DNA of 64,000 nucleotides. It comes from Peptococcaceae bacterium UBA5752. Its GTDB lineage: Bacteria; Bacillota; Dehalobacteriia; UBA4068. Location: the NCBI GenBank assembly GCA_002419055.1, contig DIFI01000017.1:41160-105159 (forward strand). The letters are read 5' to 3'. A program made the translations under genes and the position numbers. The notes beneath the pieces are model-generated. The model saw only the letters and a list, made by a program, of their open reading frames with translations, was not told the origin of the DNA and searched no databases. This document shows, piece after piece, positions 16,211 to 30,392 of the stretch (the first letter of the stretch is position 1; each line of letters opens with the position of its first letter).

Positions 16211-19200
16211 ATGCAAATTGCATCAGAAAAAAAGATGCTGGCCCTTTTGGTACAGCGTCTAAATGATTCGACGAATCCCTATGTTTATTCATTGAAAAGA
16301 AAAGAAGTTAATGCTTTTTTGGAACAGCATGGCTGGGCAAAAAAGATTAATGATTTGCTACGCATGCCTACTTCTGTTACCTGGAAGCGGGTTTTAGAAT
16401 TAAGCCGGGATACGCTGGATTATCTGTGTGAAATGCCGGATGAAGGCTGGTTAAATTTTACCTTGCATTTTGCCATTGATCTGATGTTCCCCAAAGAAGA
16501 GTTTGCTTTACGCCGCAGTAAATTCAGCGACGGAGCAGTTTTTCTGCTTACTTTGATGCAGCTTGTTTATGACGAAGAAAAGAAAGCCGGATTGATACCT
16601 AAATCGGTTGAGTTTTCTTTACTAAATAAATCTGAAGTAGAGGGCGAGTCAACCGCTGTTGAATACAACCGTTTGCTTAAAGCACTTAGACAGGAATATG
16701 TATACGAAATGATGCGGCTGTCTCAGGAACTGTCGCCCTACCGTTCTTTAGAACATATCGCCAATGTTCATCGGATGGCTCTTTATATGGCGCGGCAATT
16801 GAAGCGCTCCGGCGTACCTGTGGACTTATGCCTTATTTCCGGTGCTGCCCTGACTCATGATATAGGTAAATTTGGCTGCCAGAAAGGTGAACGCGTACCT
16901 TATCTGCATTATTTTTATACTGACAGATGGTGCCGGCAGCAAAATATACCCACAATCGGTCATATCGCGGCCAACCATTCTGTTTGGGATCTGGAGCTAG
17001 AAAATTTGTCGGCGGAATCACTGCTGCTCATTTACGCTGATTTTCGTATTAAACAAGTGACAGATAACGGCGTGGAAAATACCCGCGTATTCACACTCAA
17101 GGAAAGCTTCCAAGTCATACTAGAAAAACTTGATAACGTGGATTCCTCCAAGCGGGACCGTTATCTGAAAGTTTATGATAAGCTCAGCGATTTCGAGGAT
17201 TATCTGCGCTTTTTAGGCGTAGATACAAACATGGATGGCAAAGAATTGCATCCTTGCTGCCGCGAAGCCTCTCTGATGACCGGCGAAGAAGCGGTGGCTT
17301 CTTTGAAACTGCTGGGCGTTGAGCATAATATTGCTCTGATGCACCACTTCGGCAACGAACGATTGTTCGGTAACATCCTGGAAGCTGCCCGAACCGAGAA
17401 AAACTGGAAAAATATCCGCGCCTATCTAGGTGTTTTCGATGAATATTTCACTTATCTGAGCATCAGCCAAAAGGTGCAGACGCTGGCTTTTCTTTACGAG
17501 CTGTTGATGAACCGCGAAGGCGATATACGCCGTCAGGCCGCATCGCTACTGGGCAATATCATTGCGCGCTTCGATATCAGCTATAAAAAAGAACTGCCCG
17601 CCGGTGTGGCGGAGGATGATGATATAACCTCGCTGCAAATGTGGGAAAAATATCTTGAGATGATTATTCATCCGAGTTATAAGCTTACCTTCCAACACAA
17701 AAGCTGGATTGGCTTTACATTAAAGATAGTTATCTCATCATTTTTCGAAAACTGTGACGAGGCTGACCGCCGTCCTTTTATGGAGCGGCTAACCAAGTGG
17801 TTTAGCAGCCCGGATAAGGAAGAGTTGGTCAACTTCTATTTACTTGATGCAATCAATTATCTGCCTCTGAAATTTTGCACGGACAAGGAAAGGTCGCGTC
17901 TACTGACATTTGCCATGGATGCAGCCGAAGGCTCCATATCACTGTTGCGCGCCTCTGCTTTGCGTACTTTGAGCTATATCGTTGCCATCGGCTACCCCTT
18001 AGAACAAGATGAGGTTCGTCGTCTGTCCGCGCTTTGCGTACCCTGCAACGATCAAGAAGAAAATACTACGCTGCGAATGTTAAAAACGCAAATTCGCAGT
18101 TGTTTATCGGAAAGTGACGAAACTGAATTGACTGCCGTCAGCAGTGATACAATCTCCGATATCTTTCTTGATAATCTGAAGATGGCCACCTCGTGGGTGA
18201 TCAAAACCCTTAACGTGGATCTTTTGCTCAGCGTAGCCGAGCAAGACCCGCACAGTCCTTATCTGCTGCATATCGCCGCTCATTTTGCTAATCTGCTCAA
18301 AGTCAGTGAGCGGGTAGTGGTGCGGCACAAAGCCGGCGCCGCGCTGTTGCACATCGCGCCTCTACTTTCCTATGACCAGCGCAATGAGATAGCAGTGGAG
18401 CTGCTACAGGGACTGGAAGTCGGAGAATATGAATTTTCTAAATATATACCCGAATATTTGGGACAGTTTGCTCTCTGGCTAAGTACCGAAGAACTGGAAG
18501 AATTGATTCTCCAACTCAATGATCTGGTTTACAGTCCTAATACAAATGTGGTAGCCGTCGCCATAGCAACAATTGGCGTTCTGATGGAATGCCTCAATAA
18601 TCGCCGTGACAACTTTGGTGAGACTCACCAAATGCAGGAACGCCGCAGAGAATATTTACTTGGTATACTGCTTAAAGGTTTGGTAGGACGTGACGCTGCA
18701 AGACAGGAGTCGATGCTGATCATCGGACAGCACTTCTTTGCCTCTCGCAAACTGGCCGATGACGATAAACGTCAGCTATTCGGCAAATGCTGTAAAAAGC
18801 TGCTCAGCTTAATTAGCGAATATCGGGAAGGCAAACTGGAATTTTTCTACCGTGCCGCTGTTTTAAACAATATTTACCGCTTCATCAGCGATTCCCAGCT
18901 TAATCATGGGGAATTTGTCATTGAACAATTTGATAAAGTTGCGTTTTTCCCCGGCACCTTCGATCCTTTCTCCAATTCTCACAAAGGTATCGTGGAGGAG
19001 ATGCTTCAGCAGGGCTTCGAAGTAATGCTGGCTATCGATGAATATTCCTGGTCCAAAAAAACGCAGCCGCATTTTATCCGGCATCAATTAGCCAATATGA
19101 CTTTGGCCGATAAATTTCATGTCTATGTTTATCCCGGATCTATGCCGGTTAATATTGCAAATCCGCAGGATCTGGCTATGCTGCGACATTCTCTGCCGGA

Positions 19201-21049
19201 GCGTCATATCTATATAGTAGCCGGCAGCGACGTAGTAGCTAATGCTACCGCCTATAAAGAGCCGCCACAACCCGATTCTATCCACAGCTTCGACCATATC
19301 ATATTTCCGCGTACGGAGGGCGAAGATATTGCGGCAGTGATTGACATGGCCGCACTATCCCGCATCAAAGGCGAAGTGATAAGCCTATCACTGCCGGTAT
19401 ACTTGGAAAATGTCAGTTCTACCAACATCCGTGAGGATATTGACAATAACAGAGATATTTCCAATCTGGTTGACCCCATGGTACAGGAGTTCATCTACAA
19501 CAACAATCTCTATCTGCGTGAGCCTCAATACAAACAGTTACCGAACGTCCGGCAAGCCGAAGTGGAACGCTGGACTTCGGCAAATCCCGCCGATGTACAA
19601 CGTCTGTTAAATAAACTGTTGCCGGAGCGGGGTGAGGCAAATCGTGCGACAGCCGTTGCTTTAAGTAAAAGAGGAAGCGAATTTTTTCTGCTCAAAGATG
19701 ACAGCCAAGAGGCTAGTCCGGTAGGAATGATATCGCTGCACGAAGTGCAGATTTCGGAATTGATGCCTTTGTTGGGCAATACCCATTTGGCGGATAAAGT
19801 CCGCCAACGACAGGCCGGACGAGTATTGTTGATCACCGGCATATATATGAGCAAAGACAGTTGGGACAACTCTCAGCTTCTCTGCACCGAAGTATTTGGA
19901 TCAGCGCTGCGTAACGGCTGTACCCATGCTATGTTCTATCCAATCGACACCGCAGGAAACTGCAATTATGTCTTAGAGTTGCTGAAACGCCAAGGTTTTG
20001 TGGTTTTAGAGGACAATGACCCGCGGCAGCCGTTATATATTACCGATTTGCGTGCGCCTTTGGTGTTGCTCCGCAATATCGAGACATCTATGAAGGCGCC
20101 TTTTGCCAATTTACCGTCTGTATTGAAGGCGGCACAAGGGGCTCACTGGCGGTTGCAGACTGCCATGGCAGGACTCAAGCCGGGTCATCTGGTATTATCC
20201 GTAGATTCCAATATCATGCAGGAAAAGCTGATCCGCCGCATTACAGAACTTAACGGCGTACCGGCAAAACCCGTAGAGCCTCCGCAGTTTGGCCCCTTGA
20301 TGTGCGTTCCTTTCAGCAAGTTACTGCGGCGCAGTATAGTGCCGAATACAGTGACCAAGACAGTGCATACAGACAAAGTGTTTGAGCCAGATATCAGCAA
20401 ATTTTCTATTGAAGCATATCCCAATTATTTGCCGCTGGAATACCAAATTCGCACTATCAAATCATTTATGCGCCCGGTGATTATGGTGACTGATATGCTG
20501 CAAAGCGGCCACAGGTTAAGAACATTATCTCCGATTTTTAATCAACAGGGTATTGAGATCCACGCCGTATTAGCGGGAATATTATCCGGACGGGGCCGTG
20601 ATGTTGTCTCCACGCAAGGTTATCGTGTCGAATGCATCTATTTTGTTCCCAACCTTCATGGCTGGTGCATCGAGTCCACTCTCTATCCTTTCATCGGCGG
20701 AGATACGGTGCGCAGAAATGAAAGTCCTAAGGCCAATCTGCTACCCGCGGTCAACCTGATACTGCCCTATGCTTCTATTCGCATTTTCAACCAATTTCCG
20801 AGAAAAGCGGTATACGATTATTCGCTTGCATGTATGGAAAATGCCCGCGATATCATGCAGGTGTTGGAACAGGAATACGCCGCCCGCTTCGGACGCAATC
20901 TGACATTGAACCGCCTCTCTGAAGTTATCCACCTGCCGTTGCTGCCTGATAAGGGTAAATATATGCAATATGATTACAATCTTACGGCATCTGTTTATAT
21001 AAAAAATGATATCGAGCTGCTGTTGCGGCTGAGTAATCAGTTTCGATGA
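16211..21049 (+). CDS. giant multidomain protein: HD phosphohydrolase motif + long helical (HEAT/ARM-like) region + HxGH/ISSTxIR nucleotidyltransferase domain (NMN/NaMN adenylyltransferase-like) + type-I phosphoribosyltransferase-like domain
   Basis: HD motif ...NVHRMALYMARQL...ALTHDIGKFG...HIAANH...LIYADFR (nt ~16750-17080); NTase FFPGTFDPFSNSHKGIV ... ENVSSTNIRE (nt ~18940-19440); PRTase-like VIMVTDMLQSGHRLRTL (nt ~20477-20527); strong RBS; single uninterrupted ORF. Confidence 0.85.
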   Translation: MQIASEKKMLALLVQRLNDSTNPYVYSLKRKEVNAFLEQHGWAKKINDLLRMPTSVTWKRVLELSRDTLDYLCEMPDEGWLNFTLHFAIDLMFPKEEFALRRSKFSDGAVFLLTLMQLVYDEEKKAGLIPKSVEFSLLNKSEVEGESTAVEYNRLLKALRQEYVYEMMRLSQELSPYRSLEHIANVHRMALYMARQLKRSGVPVDLCLISGAALTHDIGKFGCQKGERVPYLHYFYTDRWCRQQNIPTIGHIAANHSVWDLELENLSAESLLLIYADFRIKQVTDNGVENTRVFTLKESFQVILEKLDNVDSSKRDRYLKVYDKLSDFEDYLRFLGVDTNMDGKELHPCCREASLMTGEEAVASLKLLGVEHNIALMHHFGNERLFGNILEAARTEKNWKNIRAYLGVFDEYFTYLSISQKVQTLAFLYELLMNREGDIRRQAASLLGNIIARFDISYKKELPAGVAEDDDITSLQMWEKYLEMIIHPSYKLTFQHKSWIGFTLKIVISSFFENCDEADRRPFMERLTKWFSSPDKEELVNFYLLDAINYLPLKFCTDKERSRLLTFAMDAAEGSISLLRASALRTLSYIVAIGYPLEQDEVRRLSALCVPCNDQEENTTLRMLKTQIRSCLSESDETELTAVSSDTISDIFLDNLKMATSWVIKTLNVDLLLSVAEQDPHSPYLLHIAAHFANLLKVSERVVVRHKAGAALLHIAPLLSYDQRNEIAVELLQGLEVGEYEFSKYIPEYLGQFALWLSTEELEELILQLNDLVYSPNTNVVAVAIATIGVLMECLNNRRDNFGETHQMQERRREYLLGILLKGLVGRDAARQESMLIIGQHFFASRKLADDDKRQLFGKCCKKLLSLISEYREGKLEFFYRAAVLNNIYRFISDSQLNHGEFVIEQFDKVAFFPGTFDPFSNSHKGIVEEMLQQGFEVMLAIDEYSWSKKTQPHFIRHQLANMTLADKFHVYVYPGSMPVNIANPQDLAMLRHSLPERHIYIVAGSDVVANATAYKEPPQPDSIHSFDHIIFPRTEGEDIAAVIDMAALSRIKGEVISLSLPVYLENVSSTNIREDIDNNRDISNLVDPMVQEFIYNNNLYLREPQYKQLPNVRQAEVERWTSANPADVQRLLNKLLPERGEANRATAVALSKRGSEFFLLKDDSQEASPVGMISLHEVQISELMPLLGNTHLADKVRQRQAGRVLLITGIYMSKDSWDNSQLLCTEVFGSALRNGCTHAMFYPIDTAGNCNYVLELLKRQGFVVLEDNDPRQPLYITDLRAPLVLLRNIETSMKAPFANLPSVLKAAQGAHWRLQTAMAGLKPGHLVLSVDSNIMQEKLIRRITELNGVPAKPVEPPQFGPLMCVPFSKLLRRSIVPNTVTKTVHTDKVFEPDISKFSIEAYPNYLPLEYQIRTIKSFMRPVIMVTDMLQSGHRLRTLSPIFNQQGIEIHAVLAGILSGRGRDVVSTQGYRVECIYFVPNLHGWCIESTLYPFIGGDTVRRNESPKANLLPAVNLILPYASIRIFNQFPRKAVYDYSLACMENARDIMQVLEQEYAARFGRNLTLNRLSEVIHLPLLPDKGKYMQYDYNLTASVYIKNDIELLLRLSNQFR

Positions 21050-21066
21050 GATTTTAGGAGTTTAAT

Positions 21067-22320
21067 ATGTACTATGCCAAATTAGATGAAAACTATATAT
21101 GTTCTTTAAAAGGCGATTTACCGGGGCAGAAAGTGCATCAATTGCCATCGGATGTATCTCGGACGGTTTTTTTGTTTGAGCGCGATCCGTTAACTTGCCG
21201 TGATGCTTTCGCCGTTACCCACCCTTGCCAATTGTCCGCGCAAACAGAGGATGTGACTTGGCTGGCATCTGAGAGTTTACCGTCGGCGGAAAAACTGCCG
21301 CTACAAGTGACAGAGCTAATCCGTAATGACCAACTGCGTGCAGTCAACAAATCGCATCCCCGCTGGAGAGAATTGCTAAATTGTACTGCTGCGGAGGGGA
21401 AAAAACGGGTCAATATTATCGCAGTAGGCGATGTCGGCGGTACTGTGCTTATTGGTCTGCGTCTATTGGGTGGCGATATACTTTCTTCTATCGGCATCTA
21501 TGACCTGTCGCCCACGACTTTAGACCGCTGGGAATTCGAAGTGGGACAAGTTTACTCTCCCTGGACCGAATATCAGCCTCCGCATGTAGCCATAATAGAT
21601 GAGGAAAACATCTTCGATTGCGATATGCTGGTCTTTTGCGCCACCGGCGGCGTGCCTCCGCTTGCGGAAAAAGGCGATGTACGTTTAGCACAGCTTGCCG
21701 TCAACAGCCGTTTAGTATCACATTATGCCAAACTGGCACGCCAGCGAAGTTTTGGCGGCATCTTTGCGGTTGTCAGCGATCCGGTTGATCTGCTTTGCCG
21801 CATAGCATGGTTGGAAAGTAACCGTAATCATGACGGCCGCTGGGACGGCAAGGGTTTATTCACGGCACAGGTGGAGGGCTACGGTTTAGGAGTTATGTAT
21901 GCGCGGGCAGCTTATTATGCCCGCCGCGACAGCCGCTTTGCTGCTTTTTTGAACGATGGCGCAGCTTATGGGCCTCACGGCTCCGAACTGGTTATTGCCA
22001 ATTCCCTGTCTGATTATGACGATGACCTATCAAGGGAATTGACGCGCCTGGCTGCCGAGGCTAATCTGGAAGCCAGGTCACGGGATTTCAAGCCCTTCAT
22101 TGCGCCTGCTCTTTCCTCCGCTGCTTATCAGATACTCGACACTTTGCGGGGACGCCCTCATCTCGGCGCAACTATGCTGGGTGATATCTTTTTCGGCGCT
22201 GTCAACCGGCGAGGGCCCTCCGGCATAGAGGTTTTTTCTCATCCCCTACCGCAAGAGCTGCTATCCCGTATCCAATATTCTGCTGCTGTTTTGCAAAATT
22301 TGGGAGAACACTATGAATAA
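21067..22320 (+). CDS. lactate/malate dehydrogenase-family (Ldh_1-like) NAD(P)-binding protein with ~100-aa N-terminal extension
   Basis: KRVNIIAVGDVGGTVLIGL (Rossmann GxGxxG), DMLVFCATG, SDPVDLL (cf. LDH TNPVDIL), GYGLGVMYARAAYYAR, GPHGSELV (cf. GEHGDS with catalytic His); TAGGAG RBS, 18-nt gap after upstream gene. Confidence 0.7.
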   Translation: MYYAKLDENYICSLKGDLPGQKVHQLPSDVSRTVFLFERDPLTCRDAFAVTHPCQLSAQTEDVTWLASESLPSAEKLPLQVTELIRNDQLRAVNKSHPRWRELLNCTAAEGKKRVNIIAVGDVGGTVLIGLRLLGGDILSSIGIYDLSPTTLDRWEFEVGQVYSPWTEYQPPHVAIIDEENIFDCDMLVFCATGGVPPLAEKGDVRLAQLAVNSRLVSHYAKLARQRSFGGIFAVVSDPVDLLCRIAWLESNRNHDGRWDGKGLFTAQVEGYGLGVMYARAAYYARRDSRFAAFLNDGAAYGPHGSELVIANSLSDYDDDLSRELTRLAAEANLEARSRDFKPFIAPALSSAAYQILDTLRGRPHLGATMLGDIFFGAVNRRGPSGIEVFSHPLPQELLSRIQYSAAVLQNLGEHYE

Positions 22321-23359
22321 AGATTTAGTTCTTGTGATGCCTCATTGCGGTGAAAAAGAAAAAACACTGCGTATGCGCAGCGTACTCAAATATGCCCTTG
22401 AAGGCCAAAAAATCAGCCGCCGTATTGAGACAGTCAAAGAGCTAGAGGATCTTCAAGGTTGCCGTATTCTGTTTGCGGTCAATCTGGGGGCATCGGGAAT
22501 CAACCTCAGTTTTTATGCGATGCTGAAAAAAATACGCCTGCACAGTCACATGTTCGAAGGTTGTGTCGGTGGAGTGATAGTGGACGGACAAAGTGTGCTT
22601 TATACAAAAGCTGTGGCCCGCGACCTAGTCTTTGCTGCAAATACGGCAGGCTGCGCCTTTATTGGCCGGCCGTTGGTGGAAGGACCGGCATCACTGGCCA
22701 ATTTTCATATTTTGGCGCAAATAAATGATACCGATGAATGGTCGGCTTATCACCGTGAGGCGCGTAGTATGGTCGAACGCATCTGTTCAACCAAGCCGCC
22801 ACGACCGGGACGCGGTGAGGTGCTGGTGCTTCATGCTTCTTCACGCAGTACATCCAACACTTTGATGCTGTGGGAGATGATCCGCTCTCATCTCGGCGAG
22901 CGTCCAATAACCGAAATATGTCTGCGTAACGGCACTGTCAAAGACTGTGTCGGCTGCCCTTATAAAACCTGCCTCCATTTTGGTGAGCAGAACAGTTGTT
23001 TTTACGGCGGAGTTTTAACCGAAAGCGTTTATCCGGCCATTCAGCGTTGTGACAGCCTAGTGATGCTCTGCCCCAATTATAACGACTCGGTATCCGCCAA
23101 TATTTCCGCCGGTATCAACCGGCTGACCGCTTTATTCCGCAATGTCCGTTTTTATGATAAAAAAACCCATGCTGTGATTGTCTCAGGTTATTCCGGCAGC
23201 GATATTGTGGCCGGACAGTTGATCGCGGCGCTTAATATGAATAAAAGTTTCTATCTGCCGCCGCGCTTTTGCATCTGCGAAACCGCCAATAACGTGGGTA
23301 GTATCCTCAAAGTCGAAGGTATAAGTGAGCGCGCCGCGGCGTTTGCTAAAACGATATAA
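22313..23359 (+). CDS. NADPH-dependent FMN reductase/flavodoxin-like fold protein with ~150-aa N-terminal extension
   Basis: C-terminal half VLVLHASSRSTSNTLMLWEMI...CDSLVMLCPNYNDSVSANISAGINRL resembles FMN_red/iron-sulfur flavoprotein family; start overlaps upstream stop by 8 nt. Confidence 0.55.
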   Translation: MNKDLVLVMPHCGEKEKTLRMRSVLKYALEGQKISRRIETVKELEDLQGCRILFAVNLGASGINLSFYAMLKKIRLHSHMFEGCVGGVIVDGQSVLYTKAVARDLVFAANTAGCAFIGRPLVEGPASLANFHILAQINDTDEWSAYHREARSMVERICSTKPPRPGRGEVLVLHASSRSTSNTLMLWEMIRSHLGERPITEICLRNGTVKDCVGCPYKTCLHFGEQNSCFYGGVLTESVYPAIQRCDSLVMLCPNYNDSVSANISAGINRLTALFRNVRFYDKKTHAVIVSGYSGSDIVAGQLIAALNMNKSFYLPPRFCICETANNVGSILKVEGISERAAAFAKTI

Positions 23360-23370
23360 GTATTTATCAA

Positions 23371-23420
23371 AACAAATACGTCGGTTTTGTGATAAGAAAC
23401 CGGCGTATTTGTTATTTTTA
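23371..23420 (+). terminator. rho-independent terminator ending the three-gene operon
   Basis: 17-bp stem aacaaatacgtcggttt/aaaccggcgtatttgtt (one G-U), loop tgtgataag, then ATTTTT. Confidence 0.8.
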
Positions 23421-23518
23421 GAGACATTTACATATATATATTATTCACAAATAATATATATTGTGATATATTTATACATGTTATCACTATAATCATATAA
23501 TTATAGTGGAGGATCTAA

Positions 23519-24310
23519 ATGAGTAAGTCCAATGTTTTTATGATAATGCCTTTCGAAGATGCATTTTTTGAAGCATATGAAATGCTTAAAGAAAGATTTG
23601 CTGATAATTTTGAGTTTTGTCATGCAGGGGACGATGTAAATACACAACAAAACGTTCTTAAGGACATTGTACAAATGATTTGTAATGCAGATGTCATCAT
23701 CGCAGATTTAACAAACCTAAACTCAAATGTCTTTTATGAATTAGGGGGTTGCTCACACTCTTAAAAAAAAAATGTTATTATCATCACACAGAATATAAGT
23801 GAACTACCGTTTGATATTGAATCTTACAGAGCAATAGAATATTCTGTGCATTTTAAGAGATTTGATAATCTAATCAAAGAACTTGAGAGATACTTGAAAG
23901 GTGCAATAGACGGAACGGTAACTTTTGGAAATCCGGTGACAGATTTCTTATCTACTGTTAGCTCCACAATACAAAAAACTTATAAAACAGAAAGCTCTTT
24001 GGACGAGACAATTGGTGAGAAAGTATTCATTGATTTTTTGGTAGATATTGAAGAAAAAACATTATTATTTACAGATACCATTGTTGAAATGACGGCCGAT
24101 CTTAATAATATGACGGATGATATAACTAAAGAAACAGCAGAAATTAATCGTGTCAAACAAAACGGGGGCTCTGGTACCGCATTATTTATGCGTAAAACAG
24201 CAAAAATAGTTGCAGAAAGCATAAGTTTTTTTGCTAAGAAAGTAATAATCATAACTCTAGCTACTTATATTTATGACCGGAAATTGAGAAGAATTGTATT
24301 GGCCTTCTAG
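23519..24310 (+). pseudogene. nucleoside 2-deoxyribosyltransferase/Rcl-like (SLOG-like) domain protein interrupted by one in-frame TAA at 23762-23764
   Basis: ORFs 23519-23764 and 23846-24310 are in the same frame with no other stop between; joined reading gives ...ADVIIADLTNLNSNVFYELGGCSHS*LKKNVIIITQNISELPFDIESYRAIEY..., i.e. the NDT/Rcl motif (FE[IL]G with catalytic Glu, then hydrophobic K-P-V-I strand); stop sits at start of an A10 run. Confidence 0.5.
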
Positions 24311-24592
24311 AGAATAAGTATATCAATGAACCAGAAATAAAACTGAAATAATAACATTTCTTAAATCATTATTCCAAATGAAGCAGACAATAATTACTAC
24401 TTCCGAACAAACAAAAGATATGATAGATAGTTTTTCAGCCTTAAAACGATACAAAGTTATTTAGAGATTGACCTCAATAAGTTTTTACAATTTTCAGCAC
24501 AGATGGTAGCCTCTATTGATAGGATTTTGGATAAGAGTAAATTTGTGGTAGGACAAATAGACTTTTCCGAATAAATAAATATTCTTTGATTA

Positions 24593-24630
24593 AAAAGCCT
24601 TGATATAAATAAAATATCAAGGCTTTTTAT
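24593..24630. terminator. bidirectional rho-independent terminator
   Basis: stem aaagccttgata / tatcaaggcttt with loop, flanked by A-run and T-run; between convergent genes. Confidence 0.7.
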
Positions 24631-24632
24631 AT

Positions 24633-24911
24633 TTAACCTCCCGCAACGACCGGGAATATGGCAACTAAATCATTTGCGGCAAGTTTGGTATGGATTCCGT
24701 TAAGATGTTGGACATGCCGTCCGTTGACAAGGATGATGATTTCGGAGTTCAAATCCGTTTGCTCTTCGTCAAACACCGCATCCCTAAATTTATTACCGTA
24801 CTTTTTGGACAGTTGCCGTAACAAATCGGCGAGATCATCAACCGATTCATTCCAGCTTGTCCGTTTTTCGCCGGTATAATCGCGGATATAAGCAAAATAT
24901 TTGATCTCCAT
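24633..24911 (-). CDS. MoaD/ThiS-family sulfur-carrier (ubiquitin-like) protein
   Basis: 92 aa ending in ...FPVVAGG (C-terminal Gly-Gly), AAGGGGTG RBS; last gene of the AOR operon. Confidence 0.7.
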   Translation of the reverse strand: MEIKYFAYIRDYTGEKRTSWNESVDDLADLLRQLSKKYGNKFRDAVFDEEQTDLNSEIIILVNGRHVQHLNGIHTKLAANDLVAIFPVVAGG

Positions 24912-24950
24912 ACTCTCACCCCTTAAAGTAATATCTTAACACATCATACC

Positions 24951-25730
24951 TTATTTATCAGAATCAAGATACTCATCCAAATGCAAGCCGTCTTTGAGCC
25001 TTGTCGCTGCCCGCTTGGTCTTACAATAATTACAAAGCTGTAACTCCTCGATATTACCTACCGTTTCGCCCAATTTTTTGCGAACATGCTCCAACGACTC
25101 CGGCGTTGTGAAATACTCACCGCAATCCCGGCAGCGCAATAACTCAAACGTCTTTTCCCAAATGGTGCGGTTTCCTTCTGCTTCGGTCATCTCGATTGCC
25201 TGCGTAGGACATATAATGGCGCACGAGCCGCAGCCAATGCAATCCGCCGCCGGTTCGTTAAAGGCCGTACCGATCTTCTTTTTTGTCCCCCGGTTGAGCG
25301 TAGAAATCGCATTAGTGCCTAATTCCTCGCAAGCTTTGACGCACAAACCGCAAAGGATGCATTTACTGTCCGGATCGGCTTCTAAACGGTCGAACGGTTC
25401 GACATGATAGCGTGCAAGCAACCCTTTGATTCTCGCACTGTCCGGCGCAATTAAATTATACAATGCCAGCAATATCTTGCGTCTGGCCGCAATCATTTCA
25501 CTGTTAGTGAATACTTCCATGCCGTCGGCTACAGGATAAGTGCAGGAGGCCACATATTGAGTTCTCCCGTTTTCATGTACTTCGACCATACATAAACGGC
25601 ATGATGCCAAACCAGGCAGCGCCTCTGAATGGCATAAAGTAGGTATCTCAATGCCGTTGCGCCGTGCCACATCCAGGATTTTTTCGCCGGGATTGGCCGC
25701 ATACGTTTTCCCATTTATGATTATTTGCAT
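24951..25730 (-). CDS. 2Fe-2S ferredoxin-type + 4Fe-4S cluster protein (NuoG/HydC N-terminal-like electron-transfer subunit)
   Basis: Start at internal ATG (MQIIINGKTY...) with AAAGGAGG RBS; CHSEALPGLASCRLCMVEV (2Fe-2S), CILCGLCVKAC and CIGCGSCAIICP (4Fe-4S). Confidence 0.7.
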   Translation of the reverse strand: MQIIINGKTYAANPGEKILDVARRNGIEIPTLCHSEALPGLASCRLCMVEVHENGRTQYVASCTYPVADGMEVFTNSEMIAARRKILLALYNLIAPDSARIKGLLARYHVEPFDRLEADPDSKCILCGLCVKACEELGTNAISTLNRGTKKKIGTAFNEPAADCIGCGSCAIICPTQAIEMTEAEGNRTIWEKTFELLRCRDCGEYFTTPESLEHVRKKLGETVGNIEELQLCNYCKTKRAATRLKDGLHLDEYLDSDK

Positions 25731-25746
25731 CTTATCTCGCCTCCTT

Positions 25747-27543
25747 TTAATGCACTCGGATTGCATCCACCGCACAGCGTTCACGGCAACTGTTGCAATT
25801 GATACATTTTGCTTCATCCAAAACATGAGGCTGCTTTTTCTCGCCGCTAATGGCCGCCGTCGGACATGATTTTGCACACAAGCCGCAGCCGATACAAGCT
25901 TCTTGATCAATGTAAAGCTTTGTCAAGTTCTTACAAACTCCGGCCGGACAACGTTTATCTTTGATGTGAGCTTCAAATTCATCGCGGAAATTTTTAATAT
26001 TAGAAAGTACAGGATTTGGCGCTGTTTTTCCAAGGCCGCACAACGAATTAGCCTTGACCATTGACCCGATTTCTTCCAATAATTCGATATCCCCTTCTTG
26101 CCCCTTTCCTTCGCAAATATCGTTGAGGATCTTCAGCATACTTTTGATACCTTCACGGCAAGGCACGCATTTTCCGCATGATTCTTCGGACAAAAATTTC
26201 AGGTAATAGCGGGCAAATTCTACCATACAGGTGCGGTCGTCAATGACGATCATGCCGCCGGAACCCATCATTGATCCTTCCGCGATCAGCGAATCATAGT
26301 CGATTGGCAAATCAAGTTTGCTTTCCGGAATACAGCCTCCGGAAGGACCGCCCGTTTGTACCGCTTTAAACTTACGTTTTTTCTCGATGCCGCCGCCGAT
26401 GTCAAATATGATCTCCCGCAATTTGATACCCATCGGTACTTCCACCAAGCCGGTATTATTGATTTTGCCGACCAAAGCGAAAACTTTGGTTCCTTTACTC
26501 TTTTCACTGCCGATTGAGGCAAACCAATCAGCGCCTTTACTGATGATCACCGGCACATTCGCCCAGGTTTCCACATTATTGATGATTGTCGGCTTGCCCC
26601 ATAAGCCTTGGTTTGCCGGAAACGGCGGTTTGGACGTCGGTTCACCGGTTGAGCCTTCGATTGAATGAATTAAGGATGTTTCCTCGCCGCAGACAAATGC
26701 GCCGCCACCGCGTACCACTTCAGCGTCAAACGCAAACCCGCTGCCAAAAATATTTTGACCCATAACTCCTCTTGCATGTGCATCGGCAATCGCCTTTTTC
26801 ATGTTTTCCACGGCCAGGCCATATTCATCACGGATATACAGGAATGCACGATTAGCGCCGATTGCATAACCGCATATAGCCATACCTTCCAATACAGTAT
26901 GCGGGTCTCCTTCCATTATCGAACGGTCCATAAATGCACCCGGGTCGCCTTCGTCGCCGTTGCAGATAACATATTTGATGTCTCCTTGAGCTTTGGCAGC
27001 AAACGACCATTTTAAACCGGTCAGAAAACCGCCGCCGCCTCTACCGCGCAAGCTGGATTTTCTTATTTCATCTATTACCTCTTGCGGAGTCATCGTCTTT
27101 AACACTTTTTCCAGTGCTTGATAACCGCCTTTGGCAATGTAATCATCAATGCTGTCATTTGCTATACATCCACAATGACGCAAAGCAATCCTAAATTGTT
27201 TCTTTTCGAACGACCAATCATTCTTGGATTGGATCTTTGCATTTTGTTGTTTATCAAAATACAGCAGTCTGTCGATTACTTCGTCTTTAATAATGCTTCG
27301 TTCAATGATCTCCTGAACATCTGTGGTTTTAACATGAATATATGTAATTTCTTGCGGCGTAATATGAACCAACGGGCCTTTTTGGCAAAGGCCATGGCAA
27401 CCTGTTTTTTTGATATCGGCAACAACTTCAACATCCAAATCCAGTTTAGATATTATTTTTTGCATAGTTTGGTATATTTTCATACTGCCACTTGCCTGGC
27501 ATCCGGTGCCGCAGCAAACAAATATCGTTTTTTTATTTTGCAT
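25747..27543 (-). CDS. NuoF/HydB-like NAD(H)-binding FMN + Fe-S subunit (51-kDa family) with N-terminal thioredoxin-like and C-terminal 2x[4Fe-4S] domains
   Basis: GGGGFLTGLKWSF, ICNGDEGDPGAFMDRSIMEGDPH (FMN/NADH site), ESCGKCVPCREG (N3 cluster), C-terminal CIGCGLCAKSCP...CINCNSCRERC. Confidence 0.9.
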   Translation of the reverse strand: MQNKKTIFVCCGTGCQASGSMKIYQTMQKIISKLDLDVEVVADIKKTGCHGLCQKGPLVHITPQEITYIHVKTTDVQEIIERSIIKDEVIDRLLYFDKQQNAKIQSKNDWSFEKKQFRIALRHCGCIANDSIDDYIAKGGYQALEKVLKTMTPQEVIDEIRKSSLRGRGGGGFLTGLKWSFAAKAQGDIKYVICNGDEGDPGAFMDRSIMEGDPHTVLEGMAICGYAIGANRAFLYIRDEYGLAVENMKKAIADAHARGVMGQNIFGSGFAFDAEVVRGGGAFVCGEETSLIHSIEGSTGEPTSKPPFPANQGLWGKPTIINNVETWANVPVIISKGADWFASIGSEKSKGTKVFALVGKINNTGLVEVPMGIKLREIIFDIGGGIEKKRKFKAVQTGGPSGGCIPESKLDLPIDYDSLIAEGSMMGSGGMIVIDDRTCMVEFARYYLKFLSEESCGKCVPCREGIKSMLKILNDICEGKGQEGDIELLEEIGSMVKANSLCGLGKTAPNPVLSNIKNFRDEFEAHIKDKRCPAGVCKNLTKLYIDQEACIGCGLCAKSCPTAAISGEKKQPHVLDEAKCINCNSCRERCAVDAIRVH

Positions 27544-28021
27544 CTTCGATCCCTCCTTGATATTGTTGGAGTATTTGTCTCAAGGAAGCAGGTGTCAAAT
27601 TGCCATGATATTCATCATTGATTACCGCAACAGGTGCTAGTCCGCAAGCGCCTATACAGGCAACCGTTTCCAATGAAAACAATCCGTCGGCGGTAGTTTC
27701 CCCGGGTTCGATACCGAGAATCGTTTCTATTTCCGAAAGCAGGTTTAAAGAGCCTTTAATATGACAGGCAGTTCCATCACACACCTTTATAATATACTTA
27801 CCCTTGGGGGTAAGGCTGAATGCTTTATAAAATGTAGCCATTCCACAAACCTTGACTAATGGAACATTAAGGTATTGAGCAACGGTCTTCATTGCTTCCG
27901 CAGGCAAATAATTATAATGTCTTTGTATATCTTGCAAGATTGCCAGCAAAAATCGGCGTTCCGGCAGATATTTTTGGGCAATCTTTAAAGTCTCCGATTT
28001 TATTTGCGATATTTCACTCAT
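27533..28021 (-). CDS. NuoE/HydA-gamma-like [2Fe-2S] thioredoxin-like subunit
   Basis: CDGTACHIKG...CIGACGLAPV motif; start set to ATG (MSEISQIK) with GGGGGG RBS. Confidence 0.85.
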   Translation of the reverse strand: MSEISQIKSETLKIAQKYLPERRFLLAILQDIQRHYNYLPAEAMKTVAQYLNVPLVKVCGMATFYKAFSLTPKGKYIIKVCDGTACHIKGSLNLLSEIETILGIEPGETTADGLFSLETVACIGACGLAPVAVINDEYHGNLTPASLRQILQQYQGGIEDAK

Positions 28022-28094
28022 AATTATCCCCCCAGCCATTGAGAAAGAGAGGGAAAGAAGACCAATACTCCTTTCCCCATTCTTTCATTTTTTT

Positions 28095-29909
28095 TTAAAG
28101 CTGTTTCAAATTCAAATCTTGCATTTTCTCTGCAGTCGGTACACCGGATGGGTTCCAACCGCGCAATTGATAATATTCGGGCAGCATTTCATGTAAACGG
28201 TTGACGCTTCCCTTATATGCGCCATTCTTTTGTGGCTCATTCAAGATTCTCGGCGGCAGCGTATCGTCTGCGCCTGTAAAACCACAGGCGTTATTAAAGA
28301 CACGCTCCAGGTTCCAGATCCGTTCGCCGCATTTCATTAATTCTTCCCCGGTATACTCAAACCCGGTTCCGGCTGATAATACTTTGGCAATGATATCAGC
28401 GTCAAGCGCAAATGTTGTAAATAGACAGAAGCCGGCAGCATCAACTGCGGAAGTCAAATCCTGGAATATCTTGCAAACTGCAGCTTTACCTTCGGTAACA
28501 GCCGGGTCCAGCTTCATCGGAATGCCGAGGATTTCCGGCGAAGTCATATATCCACGAACATGGCAGCCGCCACGATTGGATGTTGCATATTCAAGTCCGA
28601 TACCTTGTAATGTACGTGGCTCGTAGGCAGGCATTTCCTGCTTTTTAACGCTCATTGACAATTCGGCATGGCCGTAATGTTCGGCCAAACGATACGAACC
28701 TTCGGCCAATAAGTTACCGATACCCTCACGGTAAGCGGTTTTTTCGACCAGCTCTTTTAATATTGCTGCATTACCAAATGACAGATCACAACCGGCATCT
28801 TCTTTGGGCATATAACCGCTTTCATAAAGCTCCATCGCGCAAGCAATCGTAGTCGGCATGGAAATTGCATCAATACCCAATTCATTACAGCGGAAGTTTG
28901 CTTGACAGATGGCGTCAATATCGCTGATACCACAGTCGGCGCCAAAGCCCCAGCCTGCTTCATACTCTGGGCCTTCGCCAAATCCCGCATATGGCTTGAA
29001 TGTGCGTGTGACCCTGCCACAACCTATAACACAAGAAAAACATCCTTTATTACGAACAAGATTCTTGTGCTCAATCATATACTCACCGCTCGTCTTGTCC
29101 GCCCATTCAATAGTGCCCGAATCCCTGAAGTTACGAACCGGCAAACCATTGGATTGGTCAAGAATATTGATAAGTATCTGCGTACCGTAGGCCTTTAATC
29201 CGGCGCCGGTGACAGGATTATCTTTTAATGCTTTTGTTGCCTCAGTAATAGCTGTTGCAAATCTATCCCTATTTGCTACATAAACCGGTTTATTGCCTTT
29301 AACTGCAATGGCCTTTAAATTTTTAGAACCCATGACGGCACCGACACCGCTTCGTCCGGCGGCTCTGTTCATTTCGTTCAAAATACAAGCAAATTTGCAT
29401 AGGTTTTCACCGGCAGGCCCGATACAGGAAATTTTTGCTCTTTCGCTGGTTTCGGTACGCAACAGATCAGTTGTGTCGGGCACTTCTTTGCCCCAAATAT
29501 GAGAGGCATCTTTAATTTCAACTTTATCGTTATCGATCCACAGATAAACCGGTTTTTCGGATTTGCCTTCGATAACAAAGCCATCATACCCCGCAAACTT
29601 CATTTCGGCGCCAAATTCGCCGCCTGAGTTTGAACTGGCAATCGTATTAGTTAACGGACCGCGTGTTATTACCATGAAACGGCCGGATGACGGAGATCCG
29701 GTGCCAGTCAAAGGCCCTGTCAAATAATACATATTATTTGCCGGATCCAACGGAGCTACATTAGGACCGACTTCCTCACAATACATTTTTGTCCCCAGCC
29801 CACGCCCGCCAATATATTCACGTGCATATTCCTGGTTTAAGGACTCGGTCGAAATTGTACCGTTTGTTAAATTGACTCTTAATAACTTACCTTGATAACA
29901 ACTGGACAT
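28095..29909 (-). CDS. tungsten-type aldehyde:ferredoxin oxidoreductase (AOR family)
   Basis: 604 aa; N-terminus MSSCYQGKLLRVNLTNGTISTESLNQEYAREYIGGRGLGTKM and full-length AFOR N/C domain pattern; GAGGAGGTG RBS. Confidence 0.9.
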   Translation of the reverse strand: MSSCYQGKLLRVNLTNGTISTESLNQEYAREYIGGRGLGTKMYCEEVGPNVAPLDPANNMYYLTGPLTGTGSPSSGRFMVITRGPLTNTIASSNSGGEFGAEMKFAGYDGFVIEGKSEKPVYLWIDNDKVEIKDASHIWGKEVPDTTDLLRTETSERAKISCIGPAGENLCKFACILNEMNRAAGRSGVGAVMGSKNLKAIAVKGNKPVYVANRDRFATAITEATKALKDNPVTGAGLKAYGTQILINILDQSNGLPVRNFRDSGTIEWADKTSGEYMIEHKNLVRNKGCFSCVIGCGRVTRTFKPYAGFGEGPEYEAGWGFGADCGISDIDAICQANFRCNELGIDAISMPTTIACAMELYESGYMPKEDAGCDLSFGNAAILKELVEKTAYREGIGNLLAEGSYRLAEHYGHAELSMSVKKQEMPAYEPRTLQGIGLEYATSNRGGCHVRGYMTSPEILGIPMKLDPAVTEGKAAVCKIFQDLTSAVDAAGFCLFTTFALDADIIAKVLSAGTGFEYTGEELMKCGERIWNLERVFNNACGFTGADDTLPPRILNEPQKNGAYKGSVNRLHEMLPEYYQLRGWNPSGVPTAEKMQDLNLKQL

Positions 29910-29912
29910 AAC

Positions 29913-30392
29913 TTATGACACCTCCTCAAACACTTTTTTGAACTTCTCGGCATAAAGTGCTTTTTTGGCCATGACGACTTCACTGGCTTCTTTGTATTCA
30001 ATCGCGCCATTGGGACAAGCTTTTGCGCATGCCGGTTCACCTTTACATAAATCACATTTAAGTACGCGTTTTGTTTCAACATCATACGAAATATTACCGA
30101 AAGGACAAGCGCTGACACACAGCTTACAACCAATACATTTTTGCTTTTCCCATACCACTCCGTTTGTTGCGGTATCTCTGCCAAGCGCTCCGGTAGTGCA
30201 AACATTCATACACGGTGCATCTTCGCAATGCATACACATCAAAGGTACTCCTAAGCCTATCCGTTCCCAAATAAGAGTATGTACTCTTGACTTTGCCGGG
30301 TTAAAAGCATCTTCTTTGGCAAATGAACATGCTAATTCGCAGTTCCGGCAGCTGGCACATTTTTCCGGAGAAATAATCAATATCTTTTGCAT
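29913..30392 (-). CDS. polyferredoxin-like 4x[4Fe-4S] protein (AorA-like electron-transfer subunit)
   Basis: 159 aa with four CxxCxxCxxxCP-type motifs (CASCRNCELAC, CMHCEDAPCMNVC, CIGCKLCVSACP, CDLCKGEPACAKACP); weak RBS. Confidence 0.8.
   Translation of the reverse strand: MQKILIISPEKCASCRNCELACSFAKEDAFNPAKSRVHTLIWERIGLGVPLMCMHCEDAPCMNVCTTGALGRDTATNGVVWEKQKCIGCKLCVSACPFGNISYDVETKRVLKCDLCKGEPACAKACPNGAIEYKEASEVVMAKKALYAEKFKKVFEEVS

What the first reader, a model, noticed from the sequence alone, without database searches (positions are those of the whole stretch)
23360..24650. AT-rich islet with a nucleoside 2-deoxyribosyltransferase/Rcl-like gene interrupted by one in-frame TAA at an A10 tract
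- Two ORFs (23519-23764, 23846-24310) are in the same frame and separated only by TAA.
- Read-through restores the family motif ...FYELGGCSHS[L]KKNVIIIT... (catalytic Glu of NDT/Rcl/LOG-like SLOG folds, then the conserved hydrophobic strand).
- TAA is most simply a TTA(Leu)->TAA nonsense change at the edge of a 10-A homopolymer, so a pseudogene, sequencing error or phase-variable state are all possible.
- NDT/Rcl-like N-glycosidase domains act on nucleotides/NAD-like substrates, the same chemical theme as the adjacent operon.
- The islet is far more AT-rich than both neighbours and contains further tiny ORF debris, so it looks like acquired and decaying DNA.
Basis: partly seen in the sequence, partly recalled or inferred. 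Interest (0 to 1): 0.65.

Follow-up and report, generated by a model that had tools for sequence, protein, structure and literature searches.

The report
Decayed NDT-like accessory gene relic
The AT-rich islet is the dead remnant of a horizontally acquired, about 360-residue gene with a nucleoside-deoxyribosyltransferase-like domain; it is broken by at least six lesions rather than one stop codon, so it is an ordinary pseudogene.

Summary
The raw observation holds. Two same-frame ORFs (23519-23764, 23846-24310) are separated only by TAA 23762-64 at an A10 tract, in an islet of 31% GC between flanks of about 47% GC.

Intact relatives (best E 1e-97, 65-69% identity) are 350-372 aa, not about 260 aa. 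They combine an N-terminal NDT/DNPH1-like alpha/beta domain with a C-terminal bundle of four long helices.

The TAA is not a Leu-to-stop change. A +1 in a G5 run (23744-48) and a compensating shift in the A10 run put 9 codons out of frame. The true frame there reads GVAHTLKKK, which is the family motif.

Downstream there are four more lesions:
- two 1-nt deletions (about 24246 and about 24336);
- TGA in place of the family's invariant Trp (24274-76);
- a deletion of about 20 nt that removes an invariant Gly motif (about 24450).

The native stop is at 24572-74. Two metagenome assemblies that differ elsewhere carry an identical islet.

A single slippage event cannot restore the gene, so phase variation is excluded. 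In other genomes the gene is solitary and usually low in GC. It is never linked to the upstream operon, and that operon is conserved in relatives without it.

Verdict: a multi-lesion pseudogene of an uncharacterised, mobile NDT-like family. Low interest.

The parts
23371..23413 (+). Intrinsic terminator of the upstream FMN_red operon (17-18 bp stem followed by ATTTTT). It marks the left edge of the islet.
23420..23518 (+). Very AT-rich 5' region of the pseudogene. It holds promoter-like sites (for example TATACA-17-TATAAT at 23473-23501), two palindromes (23434-61, 23485-508) and the RBS GGAGGA at 23508-13.
   Evidence: Consensus matches only; function is not shown.
23519..24574 (+). The whole pseudogene: relic of an NDT-like plus four-helix-bundle protein of about 360 aa, 65-67% identical to intact relatives once the frames are corrected.
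23519..23743 (+). Segment 1 in the original frame, residues 1-75 (MSKSNVFMIMPF...NVFYEL). It includes the conserved Glu codon GAA at 23738-40.
23744..23748 (+). Lesion 1: G5 run with one extra G (+1 frameshift).
   Evidence: Intact relatives have gg[ngc] followed directly by the [VIL] codon.
23745..23771 (+). Nine codons whose true frame is +1 relative to the start. They read GVAHTLKKK, the family motif with invariant G76, H79 and K83.
23762..23764 (+). It is a stop only because this stretch is read out of frame; in the true frame it spans cTT AAa (Leu-Lys).
23763..23772 (+). Lesion 2: A10 tract carrying the compensating shift (+2 from an A8 such as ctt aaa aaa aat gtt, or -1 from an A11). It returns the reading to the original frame.
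23774..24244 (+). Segment 3 in the original frame (VIIITQNISELPFD...FFAKKV): the rest of the NDT-like domain, the linker and the first helices. It carries G166V and K227I at conserved columns.
24245..24247 (+). Lesion 3: 1-nt deletion (gta[a]at). The reading moves to frame 3.
   Evidence: and direct reading
24274..24276 (+). Lesion 4: TGA in place of the invariant Trp (W250, motif LWPEIE).
24334..24338 (+). Lesion 5: 1-nt deletion in cca gaa [a]at aaa (PENK). The reading moves to frame 2.
   Evidence: and direct reading
24339..24449 (+). Frame-2 segment KTEIITFLKSLFQMKQTIITTSEQTKDMIDSFSALKR. This includes the 28-aa 'debris' ORF 24378-24464.
24450..24451 (+). Lesion 6: junction of a deletion of about 19-22 nt that removes about 7 codons, including invariant G308 (G-[ML]-[QE]-R-x-L-[NT]-Q), and shifts the frame back to the original.
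24452..24574 (+). Last segment (QSYLEIDLNKFLQFSAQMVASIDRILDKSKFVVGQIDFSE) and the native stop TAA at 24572-74, where relatives also end.
24591..24629 (.). Perfect 16-bp hairpin flanked by A and T runs. It is a likely bidirectional terminator shared with the convergent ThiS/MoaD-like gene (24633-24911, - strand) and marks the right edge of the islet.

Best explanation
Region 23519-24574 is a non-functional relic (pseudogene) of a single-gene, horizontally acquired accessory locus.

The ancestral gene encoded a protein of about 360 aa. It had an N-terminal NDT/DNPH1-like (TIR-related) N-glycosidase-type domain of about 130 residues, a short disordered linker, and a C-terminal bundle of four helices of 36-46 residues each.

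In this genome the gene has accumulated six lesions:
1. +1 in a G run.
2. A compensating shift in an A run. Lesions 1 and 2 together create the apparent in-frame TAA.
3. A 1-nt deletion at about 24246.
4. TGG-to-TGA at the only, invariant Trp.
5. A 1-nt deletion at about 24336.
6. A deletion of about 20 nt.
It also carries substitutions at conserved columns.

Shown: no reading frame and no single slippage event can yield the full protein.

Inferred: the locus has no present function beyond possibly residual transcription.

Inferred, not shown: the intact family is a mobile conflict or defence-type effector. In this model the helical bundle controls or oligomerises an N-glycosidase that attacks a nucleotide or NAD-like substrate through the conserved Glu. 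The copy here was lost through relaxed selection or because it was costly.
For: Homology and true length:
- 793 database proteins match at E <= 1e-3. The best are intact at 356-372 aa, with E 1e-97 and 65-69% identity.

Lesion map:
- A frameshift-aware alignment to P0001, P0002 and P0006 gives the same lesions each time and recovers 229-240 identical residues.
- The three-frame translations show the homologous pieces directly.
- Frame correction raises the PF05014 score from 16.0 to 25.6 bits, which is within the range of intact members at 26-31 bits.
- Invariant W250 and G308 are lost, and G166 is replaced by V.

The lesions are real:
- The islet is identical in JGI assemblies 3300002219 and 3300000568, which differ by two indels elsewhere.
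- 47 homopolymer runs sit inside intact ORFs of at least 200 aa in this window.
- Lesions 3-6 are not long-homopolymer events.

Fold:
- The AF2 model of P0002 has mean pLDDT 82.
- The top 50 PDB matches are all NDT or DNPH1.
- Viral structure matches are CMP hydrolase, CAP12/Pycsar TIR and NDT.
- YELG aligns to YELG of DNPH1.

Foreign, solitary nature:
- Gene GC is 5-30 points below the flanks in 19 of 26 loci.
- There is no conserved neighbour.
- Some copies sit next to TnpV or a type III R-M methyltransferase.
- The PADLOC CBASS TIR-effector model matches at 1e-9 to 7e-7.
Against: - No raw reads were available, so the two homopolymer lesions (G5, A10) could in principle be shared sequencing errors.
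- The two metagenomes may come from related cultures and may not be fully independent.
- There is no close relative (above 70% identity) from which to infer the ancestral nucleotide states exactly.
- The defence or conflict role of the intact family is inferred from context and fold only. Immediate neighbours are often housekeeping genes.
- No PADLOC model covers the full protein.
- No paper describing the family was found.
Confidence: 0.9

Rival explanations
1. One reading: an otherwise intact gene of about 260 aa carries one nonsense codon (TTA to TAA) at the edge of the A10 tract, possibly as a phase-variable or contingency switch.
For: The two ORFs are in the same frame with only TAA between them, and the A10 is the longest homopolymer in the window.
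Against: - The nine residues around the TAA match the family only in the +1 frame.
- Relatives are 350-372 aa.
- Four more disabling lesions lie downstream, including loss of the invariant Trp and of a Gly motif.
- No single length change of G5 or A10 restores even the N-terminal domain.
Confidence: 0.02
2. Sequencing or assembly artefact: the gene is intact in the organism and the frame changes are indel errors in an AT-rich, homopolymer-rich stretch.
For: - Lesions 1 and 2 lie in G5 and A10 runs.
- The second assembly (L002) shows two indels elsewhere, so indel errors or variants do occur in these data.
Against: - The islet is base-for-base identical in two assemblies that differ elsewhere.
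- TGG-to-TGA and the deletion of about 20 nt are not homopolymer errors.
- Lesions 3 and 5 lie in runs of only 2-3 A.
- 47 other homopolymer runs lie in intact long ORFs.
- Substitutions have also occurred at conserved columns.
Confidence: 0.04
3. Recoding: the gene is expressed through programmed frameshifting or transcriptional slippage at the homopolymers, with TGA read as Trp. This could be a legacy of a donor that uses TGA = Trp.
For: - Long A runs promote transcriptional slippage (general knowledge).
- The only Trp position of the family is TGA here.
Against: - Five separate frame changes would be required, three of them at sites with no slippery run.
- The deletion removes conserved residues outright.
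- The host's other genes are long ORFs under table 11.
- Intact relatives were called with the standard code.
Confidence: 0.01
4. The fragments have been retained as new small genes, for example an 81-aa N-terminal peptide or the 154-aa helical fragment acting alone.
For: - The promoter-like sites and the RBS upstream of 23519 look intact.
- JGI gene callers annotate products of 81, 154 and 28 aa.
Against: - The 81-aa product ends with 5 out-of-frame residues and lacks two strands of the fold.
- The 154-aa ORF starts at an internal GTG with no RBS evident and ends in 20 out-of-frame residues.
- The database holds a counterpart of the 154-aa fragment only from this same sequence (P0007). No counterpart of the 81-aa fragment was listed.
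Confidence: 0.03

Closest known systems
Nucleoside 2'-deoxyribosyltransferases (PF05014; for example PDB 7o62, 8pqq, 6evs) and DNPH1/Rcl 2'-deoxynucleoside 5'-phosphate N-hydrolase (for example 8os9, 4fyh)
   Same: - The N-terminal domain of about 130 residues has the same alpha/beta fold (Foldseek probability 1.00, TM normalised to target 0.5-0.75).
- It has the same ...ADhhhAxhT-x5-hxYELG-x-A... strand-helix element, with the Glu aligned to the YELG Glu of DNPH1.
- NCBI already names members 'nucleoside 2-deoxyribosyltransferase'.
   Different: - HMM scores sit at or below the Pfam gathering cut-off.
- Identity to solved enzymes is only 14-21%.
- A helical bundle of about 200 residues is appended.
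- The gene is sporadic, low in GC and solitary rather than part of nucleoside salvage.
- The copy in this window is dead.
Retron-Eco1 (Ec86) NDT-like effector
   Same: An NDT-like N-glycosidase domain serves as an anti-phage effector, has an extra lobe, and shows oligomerisation-dependent activity with a conserved catalytic Glu (bioRxiv 10.1101/2023.08.16.553469).
   Different: - No reverse transcriptase or ncRNA lies next to any family member examined.
- The C-terminal part here is a four-helix bundle, not the retron effector's C-lobe.
- No sequence-level match to a retron effector model appeared in PADLOC.
CBASS/Pycsar TIR effectors (CAP12, PF10137; PADLOC PDLC00733)
   Same: The only PADLOC match that recurs in every member scanned (the window's joined sequence and five intact relatives; E 1e-9 to 7e-7) covers the same strand-Glu-helix core. 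A viral CAP12/Pycsar TIR model is the second-best structural match in BFVD.
   Different: - The match covers about 70 residues only.
- PF10137 is below threshold (E 0.077).
- No cyclase gene is nearby.
DUF4062 TIR-like NADases (Swarozyc system)
   Same: This is a precedent that domains with distant similarity to both TIR and NDT, carrying a conserved Glu, act as NADases in bacterial immunity (bioRxiv 10.64898/2026.05.01.722283).
   Different: No Pfam match to DUF4062 appeared for the window sequence or its relatives. The accessory domains differ.

Membership tests
Pseudogene (disabled copy of a protein-coding family) | Intact full-length homologues exist, and the copy carries disabling lesions relative to them. 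| tested here: met
   Homologues are 350-372 aa. The copy has five frame changes, one TGA at an invariant Trp and one deletion of about 7 codons.
Pseudogene (disabled copy of a protein-coding family) | The lesions are real rather than assembly errors. | tested here: inconclusive
   The islet is identical in two assemblies that differ elsewhere. 47 homopolymer runs are intact elsewhere in the window. Raw reads were not available.
PF05014 nucleoside 2-deoxyribosyltransferase family | Profile score at or above the Pfam gathering cut-off (28.8 bits). | tested here: inconclusive
   Window read-through scores 16.0 bits and the frame-corrected sequence 25.6 bits, both below the cut-off. Intact relatives score 26.2-30.7 bits, and 2 of 5 are above the cut-off.
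PF05014 nucleoside 2-deoxyribosyltransferase family | NDT/DNPH1 alpha/beta fold. | tested here: met
   Tested on the AF2 model of the closest intact relative P0002, not on the window copy. The top 50 PDB matches are all NDT or DNPH1.
PF05014 nucleoside 2-deoxyribosyltransferase family | Catalytic Glu nucleophile at the end of the central strand. | tested here: met
   Invariant E74 in YELG aligns with YELG of DNPH1. The codon is still present in the window at 23738-40.
PF05014 nucleoside 2-deoxyribosyltransferase family | Conserved Asp acting with the Glu (D80 in DNPH1). | tested here: inconclusive
   Invariant D49 lies one residue out of register with the D80 position in the ungapped HMMER alignment. 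No residue-level structural alignment was available.
PF05014 nucleoside 2-deoxyribosyltransferase family | N-glycosidic bond cleavage or transfer activity; a dimer with a composite active site. | not testable with these tools
   Needs biochemistry on an intact member.
Phase-variable (contingency) gene | A single simple-repeat length change toggles an otherwise intact ORF. | tested here: not met
   Two homopolymers must change together, and four more lesions lie downstream.
CBASS/Pycsar TIR effector | Encoded next to a CD-NTase or pyrimidine cyclase. | tested here: not met
   No such neighbour was seen among the Pfam families recorded for called genes around three relatives, nor among the ten immediate neighbours scanned with Pfam and PADLOC in five more loci. 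None is in the window.
Retron NDT effector | Encoded next to a retron reverse transcriptase and ncRNA. | tested here: not met
   No reverse transcriptase is among the neighbours. No Rfam hit occurs in the islet.
   The operon is conserved in L170 and L171 without this gene. Eight of the 14 relative loci with called or scanned neighbours lack the operon; the other six were not checked.

The most novel reading that the evidence does not exclude
The intact family (NDT/TIR-like N-glycosidase domain fused to a four-helix bundle, about 360 aa) is solitary and usually low in GC. It occurs in Clostridia, Spirochaetota, Chloroflexota, Acidobacteriota and other phyla. It could be an undescribed single-gene anti-phage or abortive-infection system that depletes NAD+ or a nucleotide through Glu74. 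The window would then capture a host that has recently discarded it. A still more exotic reading, that the donor used TGA = Trp, is not excluded but is very unlikely.
Probability: 0.3. Interest if true: 0.45.

Novelty: new member of a known kind. Interest (0 to 1): 0.2.

Why it matters
For this window it mainly corrects the record. The locus should be annotated as one pseudogene, 23519-24574. It should not be annotated as two or three hypothetical proteins, a phase-variable gene, or part of the neighbouring operon.

More generally it is a worked example of how an apparent in-frame stop at a homopolymer can be the footprint of two compensating frameshifts.

The only wider interest lies in the intact family. 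It is widespread, is labelled 'nucleoside 2-deoxyribosyltransferase' by automatic annotation, has an architecture that no characterised NDT shares, and behaves like a mobile conflict gene. That makes it a reasonable but unproven candidate for a new nucleotide- or NAD-targeting defence effector.

Tried and rejected
- Plain tblastn stayed in one frame and hid the lesions. I replaced it with my own frameshift-aware dynamic-programming alignment.
- My first comparison of the window with L002 used a wrong offset and produced noise. It was redone correctly.
- The search for an 'empty site' or a syntenic intact orthologue failed. The nearest relatives of the neighbouring FMN_red protein are only about 55-63% identical, so only operon-level synteny could be compared.
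- Rfam and tRNA scans of the islet and its surroundings were negative: there is no riboswitch and no tRNA integration site.
- Flanking repeats gave no convincing target-site duplication.
- Literature searches found no description of this architecture.
- L024, an apparent long 'pseudogene' in another MAG, is a scaffold gap of Ns and was discarded.
Full report
**What is in the sequence**

Between the stop of an FMN-reductase-like gene (22313-23359) and the stop of a convergent ThiS/MoaD-like gene (24633-24911, minus strand) lies a 1.27-kb stretch of 29-35% GC. Both flanks are 46-55% GC.

ORFs 23519-23764 (81 aa) and 23846-24310 (154 aa) are in one frame. The only stop between 23519 and 24310 is TAA at 23762-64, whose last two bases open a 10-A run at 23763-72. 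That run is the longest homopolymer in the 64-kb window. So the raw observation is correct.

**What the gene was**

The joined sequence finds 793 database proteins at E <= 1e-3. The best reach E 1e-97 at 65-69% identity, and they are intact proteins of 350-372 aa, not about 260 aa.

A 58-member alignment (A1) has 30 invariant columns. These include P11-F12, D49, N68, Y73-E74-L75-G76, H79, K83-K84, L95-P96-F97-D98, W250, E254 and G308.

An AlphaFold2 model of the closest intact relative (P0002, mean pLDDT 82) shows three parts:
- an alpha/beta domain at residues 1-130;
- a disordered linker at residues 147-163;
- four long helices at 167-212, 217-262, 269-304 and 311-349.

Several lines tie the N-terminal domain to the NDT/DNPH1 superfamily:
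- All 50 best Foldseek matches in the PDB are nucleoside 2'-deoxyribosyltransferases or DNPH1/Rcl, with TM normalised to target up to 0.75.
- In the viral structure set the best matches are a CMP/hmCMP hydrolase, a CAP12/Pycsar TIR protein and NDTs.
- PF05014 is the top Pfam hit for intact members at 26-31 bits, against a gathering cut-off of 28.8.
- HMMER aligns ...ADVIIADLT-x5-VFYELG-x-A-x3-K... to ...ADVVVAEVT-x5-VGYELG-x-A-x3-K... of human DNPH1. This places the invariant Glu on the YELG Glu of DNPH1.
- NCBI already names members 'nucleoside 2-deoxyribosyltransferase'.

Strict Pfam membership is borderline.

**What the TAA really is**

The family motif after YEL is G-[VIL]-A-H-[AT]-[LFM]-N-K-K-V. 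The frame that contains the TAA reads G-G-C-S-H-S-*-K-K-N-V, which is not that motif and is one residue too long. The +1 frame reads G-V-A-H-T-L-K-K-K.

A frameshift-aware alignment against three intact relatives places a 1-nt insertion in the G5 run at 23744-48. It places a 2-nt surplus (equivalently a 1-nt deficit) at the A10/T boundary at 23772-73.

Intact genes read, for example, 'ggg att gca cat gcc ctt aat aaa aaa gta' or '...aga aaa aat gtt' at this point. The simplest history is G4 to G5 together with A8 to A10, or alternatively A11 to A10.

The TAA is thus cTT-AAa read out of frame. It is the by-product of two compensating homopolymer indels and not a TTA-to-TAA substitution. Correcting the frames raises the PF05014 score from 16.0 to 25.6 bits.

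**Further lesions**

The same alignment shows that the last 20 residues of the 154-aa ORF and the small 'debris' ORFs are the out-of-frame C-terminal third of the same gene.

| Lesion | Position | Change | Consequence |
|---|---|---|---|
| 3 | about 24245-47 | 1-nt deletion (gta[a]at) | reading moves to frame 3 |
| 4 | 24274-76 | TGA | replaces the invariant, only Trp (LWPEIE) |
| 5 | about 24336 | 1-nt deletion (cca gaa [a]at aaa, PENK) | reading moves to frame 2 |
| 6 | about 24450 | deletion of about 19-22 nt | removes about 7 codons including invariant G308, returns to the original frame |

The original frame then runs to the native stop TAA at 24572-74, where relatives also end.

With the frames corrected, the relic is 64-67% identical to its five nearest intact relatives (P0001-P0003, P0005, P0006) over about 350 residues. 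It departs from the consensus at 5 of the 61 columns that are at least 90% conserved, including G166V and K227I. Intact members depart at 1.5 such columns on average.

Four of the five indels are deletions or deficits, which is the usual direction of bacterial pseudogene decay (general knowledge).

**Real lesions or artefact?**

The gene fragments are called identically in two JGI metagenome assemblies: 3300002219 (contig SCADCLC_10002388, 246 kb, 100% identical to the window) and 3300000568.

The second assembly differs from the window by two extra bases at 23011 and 23070, inside the FMN_red gene. It is base-for-base identical across the islet.

Elsewhere in the window, 47 homopolymer runs (A/T of at least 7, G/C of at least 5) lie inside intact ORFs of at least 200 aa.

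The nonsense codon, the deletion of about 20 nt and the two deletions in A2-A3 contexts are not homopolymer-type errors. I therefore regard the pseudogene as real. Two caveats remain: raw reads were not available, and the two samples may be related.

**Phase variation and recoding**

No single slippage event restores even the N-terminal domain, because G5 and A10 must change together. Four downstream lesions would remain in any case. Programmed recoding would need five shifts, three of them at non-slippery sites, and could not restore deleted residues. Both ideas are rejected.

**Context and origin**

A strong terminator at 23371-23413 ends the upstream operon.

The islet brings its own elements:
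- AT-rich promoter-like region;
- palindromes;
- RBS GGAGGA at 23508-13;
- a perfect 16-bp hairpin at 24591-24629 after the native stop.

No tRNA gene, Rfam family or convincing target-site duplication is present.

In other genomes the gene is solitary, with unrelated neighbours:
- trmD and tgt;
- peptidase M14 and a BOF protein;
- an SBP/ABC transporter and a methyltransferase;
- TnpV;
- a type III R-M methyltransferase;
- DUF6037;
- an RDD protein.

Its GC is 5-30 points below the flanks in 19 of 26 loci examined.

Full-length members occur in Oscillospiraceae, Lachnospiraceae, Christensenellaceae, Pseudoramibacter, Paenibacillus, Spirochaetaceae, Rhodothermia, Ignavibacteriota, Dehalococcoidia and Holophaga.

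They are nearly absent from phage and plasmid collections, at 2 of the 80 best IMG/VR loci. The N-terminal domain alone is common there, joined to other C-termini.

The upstream three-gene operon (a 1612-aa protein with a cytidylyltransferase-like segment, a 417-aa Ldh_1_N-like protein, and FMN_red) is conserved in Anaerovoracaceae-like relatives. In those relatives the NDT-like gene does not follow it. The proposed functional link with the neighbouring operon is not supported.

**How the intact protein most likely works (inferred)**

This rests on three kinds of evidence:
- analogy with NDT-like and TIR-like effectors, namely the retron Ec86 effector (10.1101/2023.08.16.553469) and DUF4062 NADases (10.64898/2026.05.01.722283);
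- the partial match to a CBASS TIR-effector model;
- the mobile, low-GC, solitary behaviour of the gene.

The most likely role is a conflict or defence effector. In this model the Glu-dependent N-glycosidase domain destroys NAD+ or a nucleotide, under control of, or after oligomerisation through, the four-helix bundle.

I put this at about 0.3. A specialised salvage or modified-nucleotide hydrolase is the main alternative. Nothing of this can operate in the window copy.

**Verdict**

The locus is an ordinary multi-lesion pseudogene of an uncharacterised, horizontally mobile NDT-like family.
- Interest is low for the locus and moderate at most for the intact family.

Noticed in passing
window 16211-23359 (+); L170 3117-10059; L171 3032-10062: A conserved three-gene operon: a protein of 1612-1628 aa whose only Pfam hit is a cytidylyltransferase-like segment (residues 912-1075), a protein of 328-417 aa that is weakly Ldh_1_N-like, and an FMN_red flavoprotein of about 350 aa. 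It is conserved at about 55-63% identity in Anaerovoracaceae-like contigs. The function of the giant protein is unknown.
   Followed up: partly
window 23011 and 23070 vs L002: The second metagenome assembly (JGI 3300000568) has one extra base at each of these positions. This splits the FMN_red gene into 246 + 61 aa there, while the window copy is intact. This is either an assembly error or a strain variant.
   Followed up: partly
window 23347-23359 and 24442-24454: A 13-nt direct repeat, TAAAACGATA[T/C]AA. One copy is at the 3' end of the FMN_red gene and the other sits exactly at the deletion/frameshift junction (lesion 6) of the pseudogene. It may be chance in AT-rich DNA.
   Followed up: no
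window 23434-23461 and 23485-23508: Two palindromes lie in the pseudogene's promoter region: ATATATATTATT/AATAATATATAT and CACTATAATCAT/ATAATTATAGTG. The second overlaps a TATAAT box and could be an operator. Relatives were not compared.
   Followed up: no
L023 about 6454; L032 about 6373: Other genomes carry copies with a single frameshift: a Defluviitaleaceae MAG (next to an A7 run, in the linker region) and a Candidatus Scatousia MAG. Inactivation or indel error may recur in this family. L024's apparent interruption is a scaffold gap of Ns.
   Followed up: partly
phage and plasmid records H1-H30; IMG/VR loci L092-L169: The N-terminal NDT/TIR-like domain alone (residues about 1-130) is widespread in temperate phages (Klebsiella, Enterococcus phiEf11, Streptococcus Javan, Staphylococcus) and in plasmids (Rhizobium 'TRAFs-binding domain-containing protein', Serratia, Arsenophonus), joined to different C-terminal regions.
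   Followed up: no
window 24274-24276: The family's only and invariant Trp is encoded TGA here. TGG-to-TGA is the simple reading. Origin from a donor that uses TGA = Trp cannot be formally excluded from one codon.
   Followed up: no
window 24633-30392 (-): Downstream, on the opposite strand, is a cluster encoding a ThiS/MoaD-like protein ending in GG, a 2Fe-2S/4Fe-4S protein, a NuoF-like subunit (Complex1_51K), a 2Fe-2S thioredoxin-like subunit, an aldehyde:ferredoxin oxidoreductase and a ferredoxin. It looks like ordinary anaerobe redox metabolism and is unrelated to the islet.
   Followed up: no
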